In this document: positions 27,001 through 33,000 of the stretch, piece after piece
Numbering within the stretch: position 1 is the stretch's first letter
Layout of the letters: the number at the start of each line of letters is the position of its first letter
From: a virus
Taxonomy: Duplodnaviria > Heunggongvirae > Uroviricota > Caudoviricetes
DNA: 42,903 nt
Direction: 5' to 3' (one strand)
IMG/VR virus record: IMGVR_UViG_2681813435_000006
Coordinates: 86,927 to 129,829 of that record
Made by a program: the position numbers

Positions 27001-30000
27001 TAATTTGAACAGCTCAATAATCTGCTTTTCTTTATCTATTCTATTATTAACGAAATCACTTACTAAAGGTATCCTTACTCCATCAAGTGTGTTGTCTCTT
27101 TTTTCATTTATTAATAAGGTTGCATCTTTAAAATCAGAATCGGATTCAAAATAAGAATCTAATCTCCAATTTGTCCAACCCTTTAATCCAGTATTTTTCG
27201 TAATCGCAACTCCTTCATTTGAAGATGCAGTTATTTCATATTCCCTATCTCCTACTTTAATTTTACTTCCTGCAAAATCCAAATTGCTCCTAGCTATTAA
27301 TCTTCCATTAGCTTGTGTCGTATAGTTTTTTAAACTAATAGGTATGTGCCCATTCTTAGCTTCATATACATCATCAAAGTCGAATTCGTATACATTATTG
27401 CCAATAGAAATATTATCATTATCTTCAATGGGGGTATTATTAAATACTAATTTGGCTTGTGCAGGGTTAGCATCTGCACTTACATCTACTTTTATATTGC
27501 TTTTATCTAGCTTTTTCCAGTGATTCTCATCCCATTCTTCATCAGTATTTGTCTTAATGCATTGGTATAAAATCCCACTTTTATTAACTATTGTTCCATC
27601 TATATATTTAAATCCTTGCGTCCATTGTTTAACATTTTCATTTACAATTCCATCACCTGTATCGAATTCAAATATCTTATCACCTATCGTTACGATTTCG
27701 CTATCAAATACTGTTCCTGTAAATTTTAATATACCTTTACCACTAGAGCCATTACAAAAACTTGTAACTTCTCCACTATTACTTCTATTTGTTATTTCTA
27801 AGCTACCATCACTTATTTTTTTAATCCAAATATCTGGTTTTATATCTATATCCCCATAATTTGGTATTATTATTTCTGTTCCATCCTCATTGTTTTCACT
27901 TAAATCATACGTTTCACTCAAATATTCTCTACTATAGGCATGATAAGTATTACATCTCATAGTTATGTCTAAATATCCTTGTTCTAGCCCAAAATGTGTC
28001 ATTTCAACATCATCAACAGGCATAGCATAATAAATCTTTTCAGGGTCTTCAGAAAAATATAATGGCTGATAATTATCTTGATGTAACCATCTAGCCACTT
28101 CTCTAATTAATTCTTTATTCCATTTTTCTGTGAAACAAAATTGTAATTTAAGTTGTAATGGATTTCTTTCTATTCCTTGAAAATAAGGCTTATCAGCCTC
28201 TATAGTATTTATTTCTTTTATTTTCTTATTAGCTAAAAAATTTTCTTTTAATTCTGCATTATCTACAGAACCATTTATAATATTAAATTCTAAACTATCT
28301 CTACCTGCATAATTGAAATATAAACTGCTCTTTATCAAAAACCATCACCTCTCTTTAAAAAGAAAAGGATACAATTAAAATTGTATCCTTAATACTTTCC
28401 TCTATTTCTAAGAGTATTTATTATTTTAGTAGCAAAACCTTGAGCTTCATTTTCTGTTCCATACATTTTATCAATATGAAAATTTATTTCAATATTATTA
28501 TTGTTACTAGTTGCCATTGCGGGTTGTAGATTTCTATTCATTCCATACCCAAAATTATTTATAGGTAAGGTATTAACAAAATTATATAATTTCTTACCTT
28601 GTTCTGCGTTAAATATAGTCTCTACTGCATTAGGATTCCCATGAAGCATAGCTTTTCCTGTAAAATCTGCAACTCCACCTTTATCATAATAACCTTTAAT
28701 ATCGCTCATGGTATTTGCATAATTAGCTATCTCACTCTCAGTCTGATATCTATCTTTACCAAATAACCATCTCGCTTGACTATTATAAATTTGCTCCTTA
28801 CCATCCATAGTGCCACCAACAACAATGTCATTCGCTGTTAATTGAACATCCCTAACAGAATTAGTATCTACAAATTGATAACCTAATTTAGTTAGATATT
28901 TCTTAGCTGCTTTCAAATCATAACCAGTTCCATATACTTTTCCATATTTAGACTTAGGAACATAATTAGCTTTATTCATAGCATTTAAATCGATTAATGC
29001 TTTATTTCTTATTTGATTATATGTATCATTTCTATCATTTCCACCTAATCTAGTAACACCGTCTACCTGAACCTCCCATGACTAAAGTCACGGAGTTCTT
29101 GGTCAATAACACTAATGTGTTAAGTATCACCAAGCTATCCCCATAGTTCCTACGGTTCTTATATATATTATTTTTATTCTTATATCTTATTTACACACTT
29201 ACATACTTACTACTTTTTTATTATTAATTATTCTTAAACCTTCATTTAAAATATTAATACTAGCATTATAATCTCTATCTATTACTAAACCACATTTCTC
29301 ACAGATATATGCCCTTACTCCTAAGTCTTTAGTTTGTTGTGATTGATTGCCACAATCGCTACATAATTGACTAGATGGATAAAATCTATCTATTTGTTGA
29401 TATATTTTACCGTACCATTTTGTTTTATATTCTAATTCTCTATTAAACTCAAAGAAACTTGCATCTGCTATACTTTTAGCTAACTTATGATTTTGTAATA
29501 TTCCACTTGTATTCAAATCTTCCATGCAAATAATATCATAGTTATTAATAAAATCTGTAGTTAATTTTTGAAGAAAATCTATTCTACAATTATAAATTTT
29601 TTTATGATATTTGTTTACTTTTAATCTTTGTTTATTTCTATTATTGCTACCTTTTTTACGTTTACTAAGTTTTCTTTGAGCTTTTATTAATTTATCTTCA
29701 TATCTTCTATAATATTTAGGATTAGAAATAACTTTATTATCACTTGTAGTTGCAAACTCTTTTATTCCTAAATCTATTCCAACTACTAAACCTGTTTTCT
29801 CTTTATTTTCTTGTGGTACATCTACACAACACAAACTAATATAATATTTACCATCTGTATCTCTTGATAAAGTAGAACTAACTATTCTACCTTGATATTG
29901 TCTTGAATAAGCTATTTTTACTTGTTTTAATTTAGGTAATTTAATTTTACAATTTTGCTTCTTATATTTACCTGTAGATGTGTATTTTATTTCTTTTTCT

Positions 30001-33000
30001 AATACTTCTATATTATTATTTGTATAATTGATTTTAATAGATTGATAATTACTTTTATATGATTTAAACTTAGGAAAACCACATTCTTTCTTAAAGAATT
30101 TTAAAAATGTTTCATATTGATTTTTTAGAGTATTTTGCAATACAGATTTTTCACATTGTTTAAGCCATATATTTTTCTTTTTAAGTAGTGTTAATAATCT
30201 TGACATTTTAGCAAAATTTAATACTGATTTATGATGTTTTAATCTATGTTTATTAATATTTAAAAAATAATTCCAAACATATCTTTTAGCATTAAAACTC
30301 AATTCTATTTGATTTATTTGAGTTTTATTGGGATAAATTCTATATTTAAATCCTTTTGCTATTGTATTCTTTTCAATATTTGTAGAAGTCATTTATTAAC
30401 ACCTCATTTTAAGACTTATATTTGCTTTTCTAAATATAATATATCATATTCTAAATTTAATGTCAACATATTTTGTTTAGGTTTATAAATATTATATATT
30501 GACTTATAAAATATATATGATACAATCTAAATAAAAGGAGTGATTTAAATGATTAGTTATAAACCATTATTTAGATTATTATTAGAAAGAGATATGTCCA
30601 AAACTCAACTTCGTGAAGCAGTTGGTTTCAGCACAGCTACATTAGCAAAAATGTCTAAAAATGAATATATTTCCATGGAAACACTTGAAAATATTTGTGT
30701 GTATCTTAATTGTAACATTGAAAATGTTATTGAATTCATACCTAAATAATTTAAATAATATATATAAGAACCGTAGGTTCTTTAATCATGTTTGAGGTAT
30801 CGTTCACATAGGTTCGCTACTACCTATGCAGTTCTCTTATGAACTTCTCATACTTTCGTATGACGCACAGACTATATCTTATCCCTCATCATTACATGTT
30901 AGGGTCTACCCACTTCGGTACGCTTGTACCTACTTCCCTCAAGAGGAATAGTCGTTGAAGTTTCCTCTGTTCGAGGCTTACCTGCTGATTGCCCATTGTT
31001 TTAGTGTTTAGGATTTAACCTTGCACTATCCAATTAATTTTTTCTACTTTCGTAACTTTCACACTTAGACTTATTTCATTCTTATGTTGTAGTTTAATTA
31101 GCTTTAGGGCTTCCCAGCAATTCAAGTAGTGTTGGGTATTGTGACTAATACCACTACATACAGATTTCTCTATATGCTAACTGTTTGCCAACTAACTCAT
31201 GGCTGAAGTCACGAGTATGCGTTGGCAAGTCAATCAAAGTTTACTCCACCTTTTGCACCTTTGCCACCTACAATAATATCATTTGGATTAAAATTAATAT
31301 CTTTAGAATTTATTTTTGATGTATCTACAAATTCATATCCTAAAGGACTAAGCCATGCTATAGCATTTTTTAAATCTTGTCCTGTACCATATACAATTCC
31401 GCCAACAGGCTTAATTCTTCCACTTTGAATATCTGAATATAATTGTATGATTCCTGCCGTATCATATCTATTTTTCCCACCTAGTCTTATAGCACCATTT
31501 AAATCTTGTCTGTCAACACCATTAATAGCACCAGTATCTCCTACAACTATATCATCTTTCCCAAAATGTAATTTGTTTTTGTCTACAAGGCTTGTATCTA
31601 TATAGTTATATCCTAAAGAACCTAATATCTTTCGAGCATTGGCTAAATCCGCCCCTGTCCCATATACATTTTTAGTTTTATTTTCTTCAAGTATTTTATC
31701 AGGGTCTTTTTTATCTATTCCATTTACTAAGTCTTGTGCTGCTTTTAATTGTTCTAATAATTCCTTTTTTATTTTGTCTCCTAGTGAAGTTAACCCTTTT
31801 CCAAATAAATCCTCAAATTGTAATAGAGCATTTTTGATTCCAATTCTCTTACCATCAATCCATTCAATATAGCCTTCAGTTAGTGCTTTTCTTGCATCTA
31901 AATTTAGATAAACATTATCTAATCTTGTGTCGATATCACGTTTTTTCTTTTCTATTTCTTTTTTCTTTTCTTCTTTCTGTTTTGTTAGAGCTTCTTTCTT
32001 TAATTCATTATTGTGCTTCATCTGTAGATCAGTCTTTTTCTTCATTTCCTCTTGTAATTGTTTTTCGTACTCTAGCCTTCTAGCTATGCCTTCTTCGCTA
32101 TCATCTGTTGATAATTTGGCTATCTTTTCTTGTAATTCCGCTATAGTTTTTAACTGCTCGCTTTTCTGTTCATTATAACTATTTCGTTTTTCTGCATCAT
32201 CTATTTTCTTTAACTCAGCATCTATAGATTCCTCGAAATGTTTTAAAACTTTATCTAATTGTTCTTTCGCTAATTCAGCAGTTTTAGTTAAGACTTCTCT
32301 TAGTTTATCTTCTATAGTGGACTTCATTTCAGACATTTTGTCTTTGATATCTTCTAGCTCTTTTTTATGCTTTTCTAGTTCAGTATTAGCTTTATCTAAT
32401 TCAGCAGTATACTCTCTAACTTTATCTAACAAGAAATCTTTGCCATATTTATATGCTATATCATTAGTTTCTCGAATTAACTCAGTCATTCTTCTAATAT
32501 TTTCTTCGTCTTGTTCTACTAGTTGCTTCTTTAATATCATTATTTGCTTGATATTTTTTTCTTCATGTAAACTAAGTCTATCTAGTTCATTTGAAATCAT
32601 TTCTATATTTTCTTTATAAATCTGCTGGATGGCTTCCCATTTAGCAGTGACTAATTCTAAACTCACATCTTTGATAGTTTTAGTTACATTAAGCATTTCT
32701 GTCCCTATGTCTGAATATTTTTCGCTTAACATATGAATAGTAGTTTCATCATAAATGCCTGATTTCATTTCTTTTTCAATAAATTCTCTTTCTTTTCTTA
32801 AAGTATCTAACTTTTTAACAGTATAATCATCTATCTTAGATAAATAGTTAATATAATTAATATCATTTTTATTTTGCAAATCGACATCTGTTCTTAATTG
32901 AGTAATTGTCCTATCAATAGATTTAACTTTGTCATCAAATTCTCCTAAACGTGATTCTAATTTTTCAATATTTATTTTATTTAAATTTTCCATTAGTTCA

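What the first reader, a model, noticed from the sequence alone, without database searches (positions are those of the whole stretch)
29149..30782. Perfect 22-bp inverted repeat links the intron core to the omegaRNA: a candidate splice/guide switch
29149-29170 (CCTACGGTTCTTATATATATTA) is the exact reverse complement of 30756-30777. In the intron RNA these arms could pair, loop out about 1.6 kb (HTH and tnpB) and bring the 3' splice site near the core. One arm is the 5' part of the omegaRNA scaffold (AAGAACCGUAGG), so pairing would block guide folding. The other arm can instead form a local hairpin AAGAACC-GTA-GGTTCTT (30766-30782), the probable HTH terminator. Competition between splicing and omegaRNA use is established for IStrons; this duplex is a concrete structural mechanism for it.
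Basis: partly seen in the sequence, partly recalled or inferred. Interest (0 to 1): 0.8.

Follow-up and report, generated by a model that had tools for sequence, protein, structure and literature searches.

The report
IStron helix that overlaps guide RNA
The inverted repeat is real (25 perfect base pairs) and is a conserved long-range RNA helix of a transposon-borne self-splicing intron (an IStron); it uses the same bases as the first hairpin of the transposon's guide RNA, so it plausibly helps decide between splicing and guide formation, which refines a known conflict rather than revealing a new kind of system.

Summary
The perfect repeat is 25 bp (29149-29173 / 30753-30777), or 33 bp at 91%. 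No shuffle of the element exceeded 18 bp.

It lies in a minus-strand group A (IS605-type, CdISt1-like) IStron, window 31232-29067. An empty site in a related plasmid fixes these boundaries.

In 33 distinct IStron sequences from about 10 lineages the arms pair at 94.6% of positions, against 38-50% when the partner is slid. Nine positions show compensatory changes. G·U pairs far outnumber A·C, which points to RNA on the intron-sense strand.

The 3' arm covers the 5' strand of omegaRNA hairpin SL1. SL1 covaries too, including in intron-less relatives. The 5' arm also forms a covarying local hairpin, found in IStrons with and without the HTH gene, so it is not specifically an HTH terminator.

A second covarying helix (30798-30780 with 29087-29071) docks the 3' splice-site region and competes with the terminal guide hairpin.

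That these alternative pairings set the splice/guide balance is inferred. Published group B mini-IStron data show the upstream right end is dispensable for splicing. ORF-enclosing IR stems and the splicing/guide antagonism are both already published. This is a new variant of a known kind, of moderate interest.

The parts
29067..31232 (-). Whole IStron (2166 nt): starts right after TTGAT (31237-31233) and ends ...GGUUCAG, with the terminal G at 29067
   Evidence: Empty-site test: the flanks of the 90.8% identical copy L017 are contiguous in the window at 32829|32828, which puts the ends after TTGAT and at TCAG. Exon junction GAT|GTA is in frame.
30800..31232 (-). Group I intron core (P1 to P9.2), ending with the GAACGA motif at 30805-30800
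   Evidence: 81-82% identical to 17 copies (80% in one further copy) in genome G324. An 8-sequence alignment gives 112 consensus pairs, 57 with compensatory changes. The GAACGA motif after P9.2 is as described in PMC4227781.
30780..30798 (-). 5' strand of docking helix H2: ACCUC (30798-30794) and CAUGAUUAAAG (30790-30780)
   Evidence: Pairs with 29075-29071 and 29087-29077 in the mini-model MFE. Compensatory changes at 4 of 12 positions among 9 sequence types; by reading, one more in L187 involves a loop base of the right-end hairpin.
30766..30782 (-). Local hairpin X:Y, AAGAACC-UAC-GGUUCUU. X copies the omegaRNA 5' end; Y is part of the 5' arm of the repeat
   Evidence: -6.9 kcal/mol. Predicted in 15 of 19 lineage representatives. 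X changes together with Y in L072, L119, L090, L248, L018 and L068.
30745..30777 (-). 5' arm of the inverted repeat (helix H1); the perfect part is 30777-30753
30549..30749 (+). Antisense HTH gene (66 aa, Cro/C1-type, Pfam HTH_26) inside the looped-out region
   Evidence: Pfam E = 2.3e-17. Homologous ORFs sit at the same place in L017, L072, L090 and L119.
30438..30526 (.). Divergent promoter-like sites: minus strand TTGACA-17-TG-TATATT (30466..30438) upstream of tnpB; plus strand TTGACT-16-TACAAT (30499..30526) upstream of the HTH gene
   Evidence: Consensus scan, 11/12 and 10/12 matches. The tnpB-side motif is present in all five HTH-bearing IStrons and absent at this stringency from most HTH-less ones. 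Promoter activity was not tested.
29199..30392 (-). tnpB (397 aa)
   Evidence: Pfam OrfB_IS605, Cas12f1-like TNB and HTH_OrfB_IS605.
29149..29181 (-). 3' arm of the inverted repeat (helix H1); the perfect part is 29173-29149. Contains Z = AAGAACC (29160-29154)
29141..29155 (-). omegaRNA hairpin SL1, CCGUAG-GAA-CUAUGG. Its 5' strand (29155-29150) lies wholly inside the 3' arm
   Evidence: Consensus fold of 12 right ends, six of them from intron-less IS605 relatives: 4 of 6 pairs have compensatory changes.
29067..29134 (-). Rest of the omegaRNA scaffold and transposon right end: SL2 (29134-29098), terminal hairpin (about 29095-29073), 3' strand of H2 (29087-29071), terminal UCAG

Best explanation
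The repeat is a long-range RNA helix (H1) in the transcript of a minus-strand group A IStron. H1 closes the roughly 1.56-kb loop that holds the antisense HTH gene, the internal promoters and tnpB. Together with a second helix just upstream on the same strand (H2: 30798-30780 with 29087-29071), it folds the transposon right end back onto the strand that follows P9.2 of the ribozyme, and so presents the 3' splice site. Shown here: H1, H2, the guide hairpin SL1 and the local hairpin X:Y are each conserved with compensatory changes. They overlap pairwise: H1 with SL1 at 29155-29149, H1 with X:Y at 30777-30766, H2 with X:Y at 30782-30780, and H2 with the terminal guide hairpin. One transcript therefore cannot hold the intron-docked fold (H1 + H2) and the guide fold (X:Y + SL1 + terminal hairpin) at once. 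Inferred: this set of alternative pairings is part of the physical basis of the known splicing-versus-omegaRNA antagonism. Transcripts from the host-gene promoter carry the 5' strands and can dock and splice. Transcripts that start at the internal promoter, or that TnpB has processed, lack those strands and fold as guide RNA. It is more likely a thermodynamic or kinetic partition than a ligand-operated switch.
For: The repeat is far beyond chance. The element's identity and ends are fixed by Pfam, an empty site and intron covariation. H1: 33 distinct sequences, 94.6% standard pairs over 26 positions against 38-50% when the partner is slid by 1-3. Nine positions show double-sided changes. There are 65 G.U cells against 11 A.C cells. 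Cognate arms bind better than non-cognate arms: summed duplex energy -597 against a permuted mean of -449, with 0 of 20000 permutations as good. The 2-nt length change in one arm is matched in the other. In L082/L154 and L187, Z changes together with Y. By my reading, in L157 the same base changes in Z, in its SL1 partner and in Y. SL1 covaries in 4 of 6 pairs. X:Y covaries while Z stays fixed in six lineages. H2 covaries; by reading, also at a loop base of the right-end hairpin. In a mini-model of the window sequence, the fold with H1 + H2 is the minimum at -78.9 kcal/mol, against -65.0 with SL1 forced, -60.2 with SL1 + X:Y forced, and -44.3 with no long-range pairing. An ORF-less derivative (L193) keeps both arms. 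IR motifs that flank the ORFs and form a stem in the intron RNA are described for all IStrons in PMC4227781. Splicing and guide formation are shown to be mutually exclusive and governed by RNA structure in 10.1101/2023.11.20.567912 and PMC13521648.
Against: No experiment bears on this element. In the group B CboIStron mini-construct only the last 18 nt of the right end are needed for splicing. Eroding the guide RNA from its 5' end raises splicing rather than lowering it, and SL1 of that guide is dispensable for DNA cleavage. A helix such as H1 is therefore not essential for splicing when the ORFs are removed, and the decisive competition there is at the 3'-terminal stem-loop. In several lineages (L068, L072, L119, L090) the 5' arm has mismatches just beside the SL1 overlap, which weakens the competition. 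The energy model replaces the 1563-nt loop with a 12-nt linker and ignores co-transcriptional folding, ribosomes on tnpB, antisense HTH transcripts and TnpB binding. The internal promoter is only a consensus match. The sequences are related, so the cell counts overstate the number of independent events.
Confidence: 0.55

Rival explanations
1. Architecture only. H1 is simply the helix that closes the ORF-bearing peripheral loop so that the ribozyme can fold around a 1.5-kb insertion. The overlap with SL1 has no measurable effect on RNA fate, which is decided at the 3'-terminal hairpin (H2 region) and by TnpB binding.
For: Such closing stems are described for all IStrons. In CboIStron the fate-determining element is the 3'-terminal stem-loop, and the upstream right end can be replaced without loss of splicing. 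Opening the 7 bp that SL1 needs would still leave about 18-26 bp of H1.
Against: A hairpin (X:Y) whose 5' half copies the guide's 5' end is conserved with compensatory changes. In L157, by my reading, Y, Z and the SL1 3' strand change together. Both are hard to explain if only loop closure mattered. The 5' strand of H1 runs on directly from that of H2.
Confidence: 0.28
2. DNA-level role. The repeat folds in the single-stranded top strand during IS200/IS605 peel-and-paste transposition, or promotes slippage that deletes the ORF module, rather than acting in RNA.
For: IS605 elements move as single-stranded DNA of the same strand as the transcript, and G.T mismatches are tolerated in DNA hairpins. 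ORF-module deletions bounded by the repeats were seen for BcISt1. ORF-less derivatives exist (L193).
Against: The intron-less IS605 relatives fetched here, which carry the closest TnpB proteins I found, show no counterpart of the 5' arm. In those where the left end was seen (L007, L015, L016) tnpB follows it directly. H1 runs on from H2, and H2 must melt the very right-end hairpin that TnpA needs, so the ensemble fits an RNA fold for splicing. This element has no tnpA.
Confidence: 0.07
3. Terminator role. The 5'-arm palindrome is mainly the terminator of the antisense HTH gene (or a bidirectional terminator), and the long repeat is a by-product.
For: The palindrome starts 17 nt after the HTH stop codon in the window. 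A homologous HTH ORF ends at the same place just downstream of the 5' arm in L017, L072, L090 and L119. The simple scan flags a terminator-like site here, but on the intron-sense strand.
Against: The HTH-sense strand has no U tract and is not flagged. The hairpin persists in HTH-less IStrons (L074, L068, L205, L248, L018). In L017 and L090 the variant pairs are G.U on the intron-sense strand and A.C on the HTH-sense strand. A terminator would not explain a 25-33-bp complement 1.5 kb away that covaries.
Confidence: 0.05

Closest known systems
IR stem-loop enclosing the ORF region of IStrons (Tourasse, Stabell & Kolsto 2014, PMC4227781; first drawn for CdISt1)
   Same: Complementary motifs flank the IS ORFs just downstream of P9.2 (after the GAACGA motif) and are predicted to pair in the intron RNA. 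ORF-less derivatives keep the stem.
   Different: For group A elements that paper describes a short, balanced stem of 6-10 bp. Here the helix is 25 bp perfect (33 bp at 91%) with a GC-containing base and an AU-rich extension. Figures are not held, so I could not tell whether their boxed group A motif is the base of H1 or the AACCUC/GAGGUU part of H2. That work predates omegaRNA, so no link to the guide RNA was drawn.
Splicing versus omegaRNA antagonism in the IS607-type CboIStron (Zedaveinyte et al., bioRxiv 10.1101/2023.11.20.567912; Mortman & Sternberg 2026, PMC13521648)
   Same: One transcript has two mutually exclusive fates. RNA structure alone shifts the balance. The guide's 3' end overlaps the bases needed for 3' splice-site recognition, which corresponds to H2 here.
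   Different: Those experiments used a group B mini-IStron without ORFs and located the competition at the 3'-terminal stem-loop and pseudoknot. The long-range helix to the guide's 5' hairpin, and the local hairpin that copies it, are not mentioned in the texts I could read. Here they are supported only by comparative data, in group A elements.
Transcription attenuators with four segments (for example the trp leader: 1:2 and 3:4 versus 2:3) - from general knowledge
   Same: Four segments (X, Y, Z and the SL1 3' strand) can pair as X:Y + Z:SL1-3' or as Y:Z. Each pairing has comparative support.
   Different: Segments 2 and 3 lie 1.3-1.6 kb apart. The outcome would be splicing or guide formation, not termination. 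No sensing step (ribosome or ligand) is evident.
c-di-GMP-II riboswitch-controlled group I intron of C. difficile - from general knowledge; alluded to in PMC13521648
   Same: Alternative base-pairing in a clostridial group I intron selects the splice outcome.
   Different: No aptamer is present or implied here. The competing structure is a guide RNA for a nuclease.

Membership tests
Group A (IS200/IS605-type, CdISt1-like) IStron | Group I intron ribozyme core (class IA2) at the 5' end | tested here: met
   81-82% identical over about 470 nt to 17 copies (80% in one further copy) in genome G324. An 8-sequence alignment gives 57 of 112 consensus pairs with compensatory changes. Rfam's Intron_gpI model gave no hit at E <= 1.
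Group A (IS200/IS605-type, CdISt1-like) IStron | Inserted after a T-rich pentanucleotide (TTGAT), 3' end TCAG, no target duplication | tested here: met
   TTGAT at 31237-31233 and ...GGTTCAG ending at 29067. The empty site for the sister copy L017 lies at window 32829|32828.
Group A (IS200/IS605-type, CdISt1-like) IStron | Subterminal hairpins at the left and right ends, of the kind TnpA recognises | tested here: met
   Left-end hairpin CTCGTGAC-TTCA-GCCATGAG and right-end hairpin CCGTGAC-TTTA-GTCATGG. The right-end hairpin covaries.
Group A (IS200/IS605-type, CdISt1-like) IStron | IS605-type ORF B (tnpB); ORF A (tnpA) often missing | tested here: met
   TnpB domains by Pfam. There is no tnpA; an antisense HTH gene occupies that place.
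Group A (IS200/IS605-type, CdISt1-like) IStron | Self-splicing that restores the host reading frame | not testable with these tools
   The junction GAT|GTA is in frame, giving ...GVNFD|VDGVTRLGG....
IR stem enclosing the IStron ORFs (PMC4227781) | Complementary motifs flanking the ORF region, downstream of P9.2 and the GAACGA motif, paired in the intron RNA | tested here: met
   The 5' arm starts 23 nt after GAACGA. Pairing is conserved and covaries.
IR stem enclosing the IStron ORFs (PMC4227781) | [quoted passage not shown] | tested here: not met
   The helix is 25 bp perfect and 33 bp at 91%. Only the 12-bp base has balanced composition.
TnpB omegaRNA | Conserved structured scaffold between the tnpB stop and the right end, with the guide taken from the flank | tested here: met
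   12 right ends, including intron-less relatives: 19 consensus pairs, 11 with compensatory changes. Conservation begins at AAGAAC (29160). Only a weak Rfam match, to Ref70 (26 bits, E = 0.21).
TnpB omegaRNA | Bound and used by TnpB for DNA cleavage | not testable with these tools
   No assay was possible.
Alternative-pairing RNA switch (attenuator-like) | Mutually exclusive helices, each under selection | tested here: met
   X:Y, Y:Z (H1) and SL1 each show compensatory changes and share bases.
Alternative-pairing RNA switch (attenuator-like) | The RNA actually occupies both states, and the state sets the outcome | not testable with these tools
   Needs structure probing and mutagenesis.
Intrinsic terminator of the HTH gene | GC-containing hairpin followed by a U tract on the HTH-sense (+) strand | tested here: not met
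   The scan flags the hairpin on the minus strand only. On the plus strand the tail is TAATCATG.

The most novel reading that the evidence does not exclude
Group A IStrons carry a four-segment, attenuator-like device spread over 1.5 kb. X copies the guide's 5' end and holds Y until Z is made. The transcript then either keeps X:Y + SL1 and becomes guide RNA, or Y invades Z, giving H1 + H2, docking and splicing. In the HTH-bearing subfamily a repressor-controlled internal promoter adds a second layer: guide and TnpB transcripts start downstream of the anti-guide strand and escape the conflict altogether. Host-gene transcripts would then be biased towards splicing and element-promoter transcripts towards guide RNA.
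Probability: 0.2. Interest if true: 0.7.

Novelty: new variant of a known kind. Interest (0 to 1): 0.45.

Why it matters
IStrons are the one place where a ribozyme, a transposon end and a CRISPR-like guide RNA share the same bases. How a transcript chooses between splicing and becoming a guide is under active study. Published work places the choice at the 3'-terminal stem-loop of a group B mini-element that lacks ORFs.

The comparative data here add concrete targets for compensatory mutagenesis in the IS605-type (C. difficile / C. botulinum) IStrons. These are two long-range helices from one 'anti-guide' strand after P9.2, and a local hairpin that copies the guide's 5' end.

If they matter, full-length elements would partition their RNA differently from the mini-constructs studied so far. 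The HTH-plus-promoter cassette would be a way for the element to separate its two RNA functions.

If they do not matter, the helix is just the ORF-closing stem already known, and the finding is ordinary.

Tried and rejected
- Rfam (E <= 1) over 27500-32500 found no group I intron and only a weak Ref70 match. The intron was instead established by homology and covariation.
- The window's own record has only this one copy.
- Loci found through the TnpB protein were all intron-less IS605 elements. They served as controls for the omegaRNA but could not test the repeat.
- IStron homologues came from DNA searches and from a 15-mer at the end of P9.2. Most 15-mer hits were chance matches without an intron core and were discarded: 12 of 80 viral loci were kept, and 15 loci in all from the later scan.
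- Searches failed (a time-out and a crash of the two-strand fold). I replaced them with duplex folding and a 12-nt linker model.
- Searches used a wrong register for H2 and were superseded.
- The Hasselmayer 2004 paper is not held. Tourasse's figures and supplements did not give the group A motif sequence, so I cannot say exactly which helix they boxed.
- I considered pairing of X or Z with the terminal GGUUC, which the MFE of the right end alone suggests, and dropped it because it is not kept in L068.
- I did not hand the concatenated arm alignment to the count of structure pairs, because that would have required typing long strings. Equivalent controls were run in Python.

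
Full report
**What is there.** The region is a mobile element on the minus strand. It is flanked by a host reading frame that runs 35747->31233 and resumes at 29066. Read 5'->3' on the minus strand, the parts are:
- TTGAT (31237-31233);
- a structured 430-nt RNA ending in the motif GAACGA (30805-30800);
- the 5' arm of the repeat (30777-30745);
- a 66-aa Cro/C1-type HTH gene on the opposite strand (30549-30749);
- a 397-aa tnpB (30392-29199; Pfam OrfB_IS605, TNB and HTH_OrfB_IS605);
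- the 3' arm (29181-29149);
- about 80 nt of structured RNA ending GGUUCAG at 29067.

The same DNA is 100% identical to two Clostridium botulinum plasmids. There the flanking ORFs are annotated as an NlpC/P60 protein and a hypothetical protein next to a distal tail protein. The scan record is classed as a provirus.

A 90.8% identical copy sits in a different gene on two other plasmids (L017). That gene is uninterrupted in the window: L017's flanks meet at 32829|32828. This shows the element begins right after TTGAT and ends with TCAG, so the IStron is window 31232-29067 (2166 nt) and the exon junction GAT|GTA is in frame.

These are the defining features of group A (IS200/IS605-type, CdISt1-like) IStrons as given in PMC4227781. 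The intron core is 81-82% identical to 17 copies (80% in one further copy) in one clostridial genome. In an alignment of eight diverse relatives, 57 of 112 consensus pairs show compensatory changes. Rfam's group I model gave no hit.

**The observation.** The perfect match is 25 bp (29149-29173 / 30753-30777), and the repeat continues to 33 nt at 91%. Two hundred dinucleotide-preserving shuffles of the element gave longest perfect inverted repeats of 10-18 nt. The local palindrome at 30766-30782 is also real.

**Is it an RNA helix?** The closest TnpB proteins (up to 85% identity) belong to intron-less IS605 elements, which have no 5' arm. I therefore collected true IStrons by DNA similarity and by a 15-mer at the end of P9.2. 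The set comprises:
- the sister copy L017;
- three Clostridioides plasmid or phage copies;
- 19 copies in genome G324;
- one copy in G174;
- about a dozen viral and metagenomic elements.

In every one a 5' segment shortly after P9.2 is complementary to a segment just after the tnpB stop. Duplex energies run from -24 to -38 kcal/mol in the first 23 distinct arm pairs.

Over 33 distinct sequences and 26 helix positions:
- 94.6% of cells are standard pairs, against 38-50% when the partner is slid by one to three bases;
- nine positions carry pair types that differ on both sides;
- G·U cells (65, at 13 positions) far outnumber A·C cells (11, at 5 positions). This is the signature of pairing in RNA of the intron-sense strand, not the antisense strand.

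A 2-nt length difference in one arm is matched in the other. Cognate arms bind each other better than arms from other lineages: the summed energy is -597 against a permuted mean of -449, and none of 20000 permutations was as good. An ORF-less derivative (L193) keeps both arms. The sequences are related, so cell counts overstate the number of independent events. The conclusion that this is a selected RNA helix (H1) is nonetheless solid.

**The link to the guide RNA.** I aligned the right ends of six IStrons with six intron-less IS605 relatives. Conservation starts at AAGAAC (29160). A first hairpin, SL1 (CCGUAG-GAA-CUAUGG, 29155-29141), has compensatory changes in four of its six pairs. The 3' arm of H1 ends at 29149, so it contains the whole 5' strand of SL1. 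H1 and SL1 cannot coexist over these seven bases.

In most lineages the bases AAGAACCGUAGG are invariant while the 5' arm drifts, mostly to G·U. This is what one expects if the guide function constrains one arm. Where the guide side does change, the 5' arm follows:
- L082/L154: AAAAACC with GGUUUUU;
- L187: AUGAACC with GGUUCAU;
- L157, by my reading: one base changes in Z, in its SL1 partner and in the 5' arm together.

**The local hairpin.** The 5' arm can instead pair with an upstream copy of the guide's 5' end (X = AAGAACC, 30782-30776; Y = GGUUCUU, 30772-30766). This hairpin is predicted in 15 of 19 lineage representatives. In six lineages X and Y change together while Z stays fixed, for example AAGAAUU/AAUUCUU, AAGAAUC/GAUUCUU and GAGUUCU/GGAACUU. 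Those changes keep X:Y at the cost of mismatches in H1.

The hairpin occurs in IStrons with and without the HTH gene. In L017 and L090 its variant pairs are G·U on the intron-sense strand but A·C on the HTH-sense strand. The HTH-sense strand has no U tract. So the hairpin is real, but calling it the HTH terminator is not supported.

**A second long-range helix.** I folded the post-P9.2 strand together with the right end, joined by a 12-nt linker in place of the 1563-nt loop. The minimum-energy structure contains H1 plus a further helix, H2:
- ACCUC (30798-30794) with GAGGU (29075-29071);
- CAUGAUUAAAG (30790-30780) with CUUUAGUCAUG (29087-29077).

H2 ends four bases before the 3' splice site. 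It uses the loop and 3' strand of the terminal right-end hairpin, so it competes with that hairpin. Among nine sequence types, four of twelve positions show compensatory changes. In the Fusobacterium-like lineage a change in the hairpin loop (UUUA to UUCA) is matched on the intron strand, by my reading.

H2, not the repeat, is what brings the splice site to the core. The repeat's 3' arm ends 82 nt upstream of the splice site. H2's 5' strand also overlaps X by three bases.

Energies of the window model:

| State | kcal/mol |
|---|---|
| H1 + H2 (minimum) | -78.9 |
| SL1 forced | -65.0 |
| SL1 + X:Y forced | -60.2 |
| No long-range pairing | -44.3 |

These numbers ignore the long loop, folding during transcription, ribosomes and TnpB.

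**How it most likely works.**
- Shown: four helices (X:Y, H1, SL1, H2) are each under selection and overlap pairwise. They define two incompatible folds, an intron-docked fold (H1 + H2) and a guide fold (X:Y + SL1 + terminal hairpin).
- Inferred: this is part of the structural basis of the splicing-versus-guide antagonism demonstrated for the group B CboIStron.
- Also inferred: a strong promoter-like site lies between the arms (TTGACA-17-TG-TATATT, 30466..30438, minus strand). It is conserved together with the HTH gene in all five HTH-bearing IStrons. Transcripts starting there would lack the anti-guide strand and fold as guide RNA. Host-gene transcripts carry that strand and can dock and splice.

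**Evidence against a strong functional claim.** In the CboIStron mini-construct only the last 18 nt of the right end are needed for splicing. Eroding the guide from its 5' end raises splicing, and that guide's SL1 is dispensable for cleavage. The authors conclude that fate is set by the stability of the 3'-terminal stem-loop rather than by toggling between folds. Those constructs lack the ORF loop and belong to another IStron group, so they do not exclude a role for H1 here. They do make an essential role unlikely.

I put 0.55 on the explanation as stated. The rivals get 0.28 (H1 is only a loop-closing helix), 0.07 (a DNA-level role) and 0.05 (a terminator role).

**Comparison with what is known, and novelty.** PMC4227781 already states that in all IStrons the ORF region, downstream of P9.2 and a GAACGA-type motif, is flanked by IR motifs that form a stem in the intron RNA. 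It describes the stem as short and balanced (6-10 bp) in group A and long and AU-rich in group B. Without the figures I could not tell whether their group A motif is the base of H1 or the AACCUC/GAGGUU part of H2.

The competition between splicing and guide formation is established. In the texts I could read I did not find the following:
- the overlap of the closing helix with the guide's first hairpin;
- the conserved hairpin that copies the guide's 5' end;
- the pairing of this arrangement with an HTH-plus-promoter cassette.

I therefore class the finding as a new variant of a known kind. It gives specialists precise, testable targets, but it is neither surprising in kind nor experimentally supported. 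Interest is 0.45.

**Limits.** Energy models are crude. Covariation was assessed with my own scripts and simple controls, not a phylogeny-aware test.

Noticed in passing
window 30438-30749; also L017, L072, L090, L119: An antisense Cro/C1-type HTH gene plus divergent promoter-like sites (TTGACA-17-TG-TATATT towards tnpB) form a cassette. It occurs in five IStrons from different insertion sites. The promoter motif is absent at this stringency from most HTH-less IStrons. This suggests repressor-controlled, host-independent transcription of tnpB and the omegaRNA.
   Followed up: partly
right ends of L007, L010, L011, L013-L016 versus all IStrons (alignment A1): The intron-less IS605 relatives, which carry the closest TnpB proteins, all end in TTCAA, whereas every IStron ends in TTCAG. 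The single A-to-G difference at the last base coincides with the terminal G that a group I intron needs.
   Followed up: partly
L193 (metagenome contig OCJI01000016.1): An ORF-less C. difficile-type mini-IStron. Only 349 nt separate the P9.2 motif from the 3' end, and both arms of the repeat and the full right end are kept.
   Followed up: no
window 32828-32829: This is the empty target site of the sister IStron copy found in plasmid NZ_CP013295 (L017). That copy sits further upstream in the same host reading frame that carries this IStron (ORF 31230..35747, minus strand), about 1.6 kb away, in the homologous gene of the other plasmid.
   Followed up: yes
window 2207-3343 (+): A second, different tnpB gene (378 aa; Pfam OrfB_IS605, TNB, HTH_OrfB_IS605), about 65% identical in DNA to part of the IStron's tnpB. 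Its ends and any guide RNA were not examined.
   Followed up: partly
window 27500-32500: Rfam's Intron_gpI model does not detect this IA2 intron at E <= 1, although its structure covaries strongly. The only Rfam match is a weak one: the right end to Ref70, an Enterococcus sRNA, which is probably itself a TnpB guide RNA.
   Followed up: partly
window 30429-30502: An imperfect 27-nt inverted repeat (70%) lies between the two promoter-like sites. It is a possible operator for the HTH protein.
   Followed up: no
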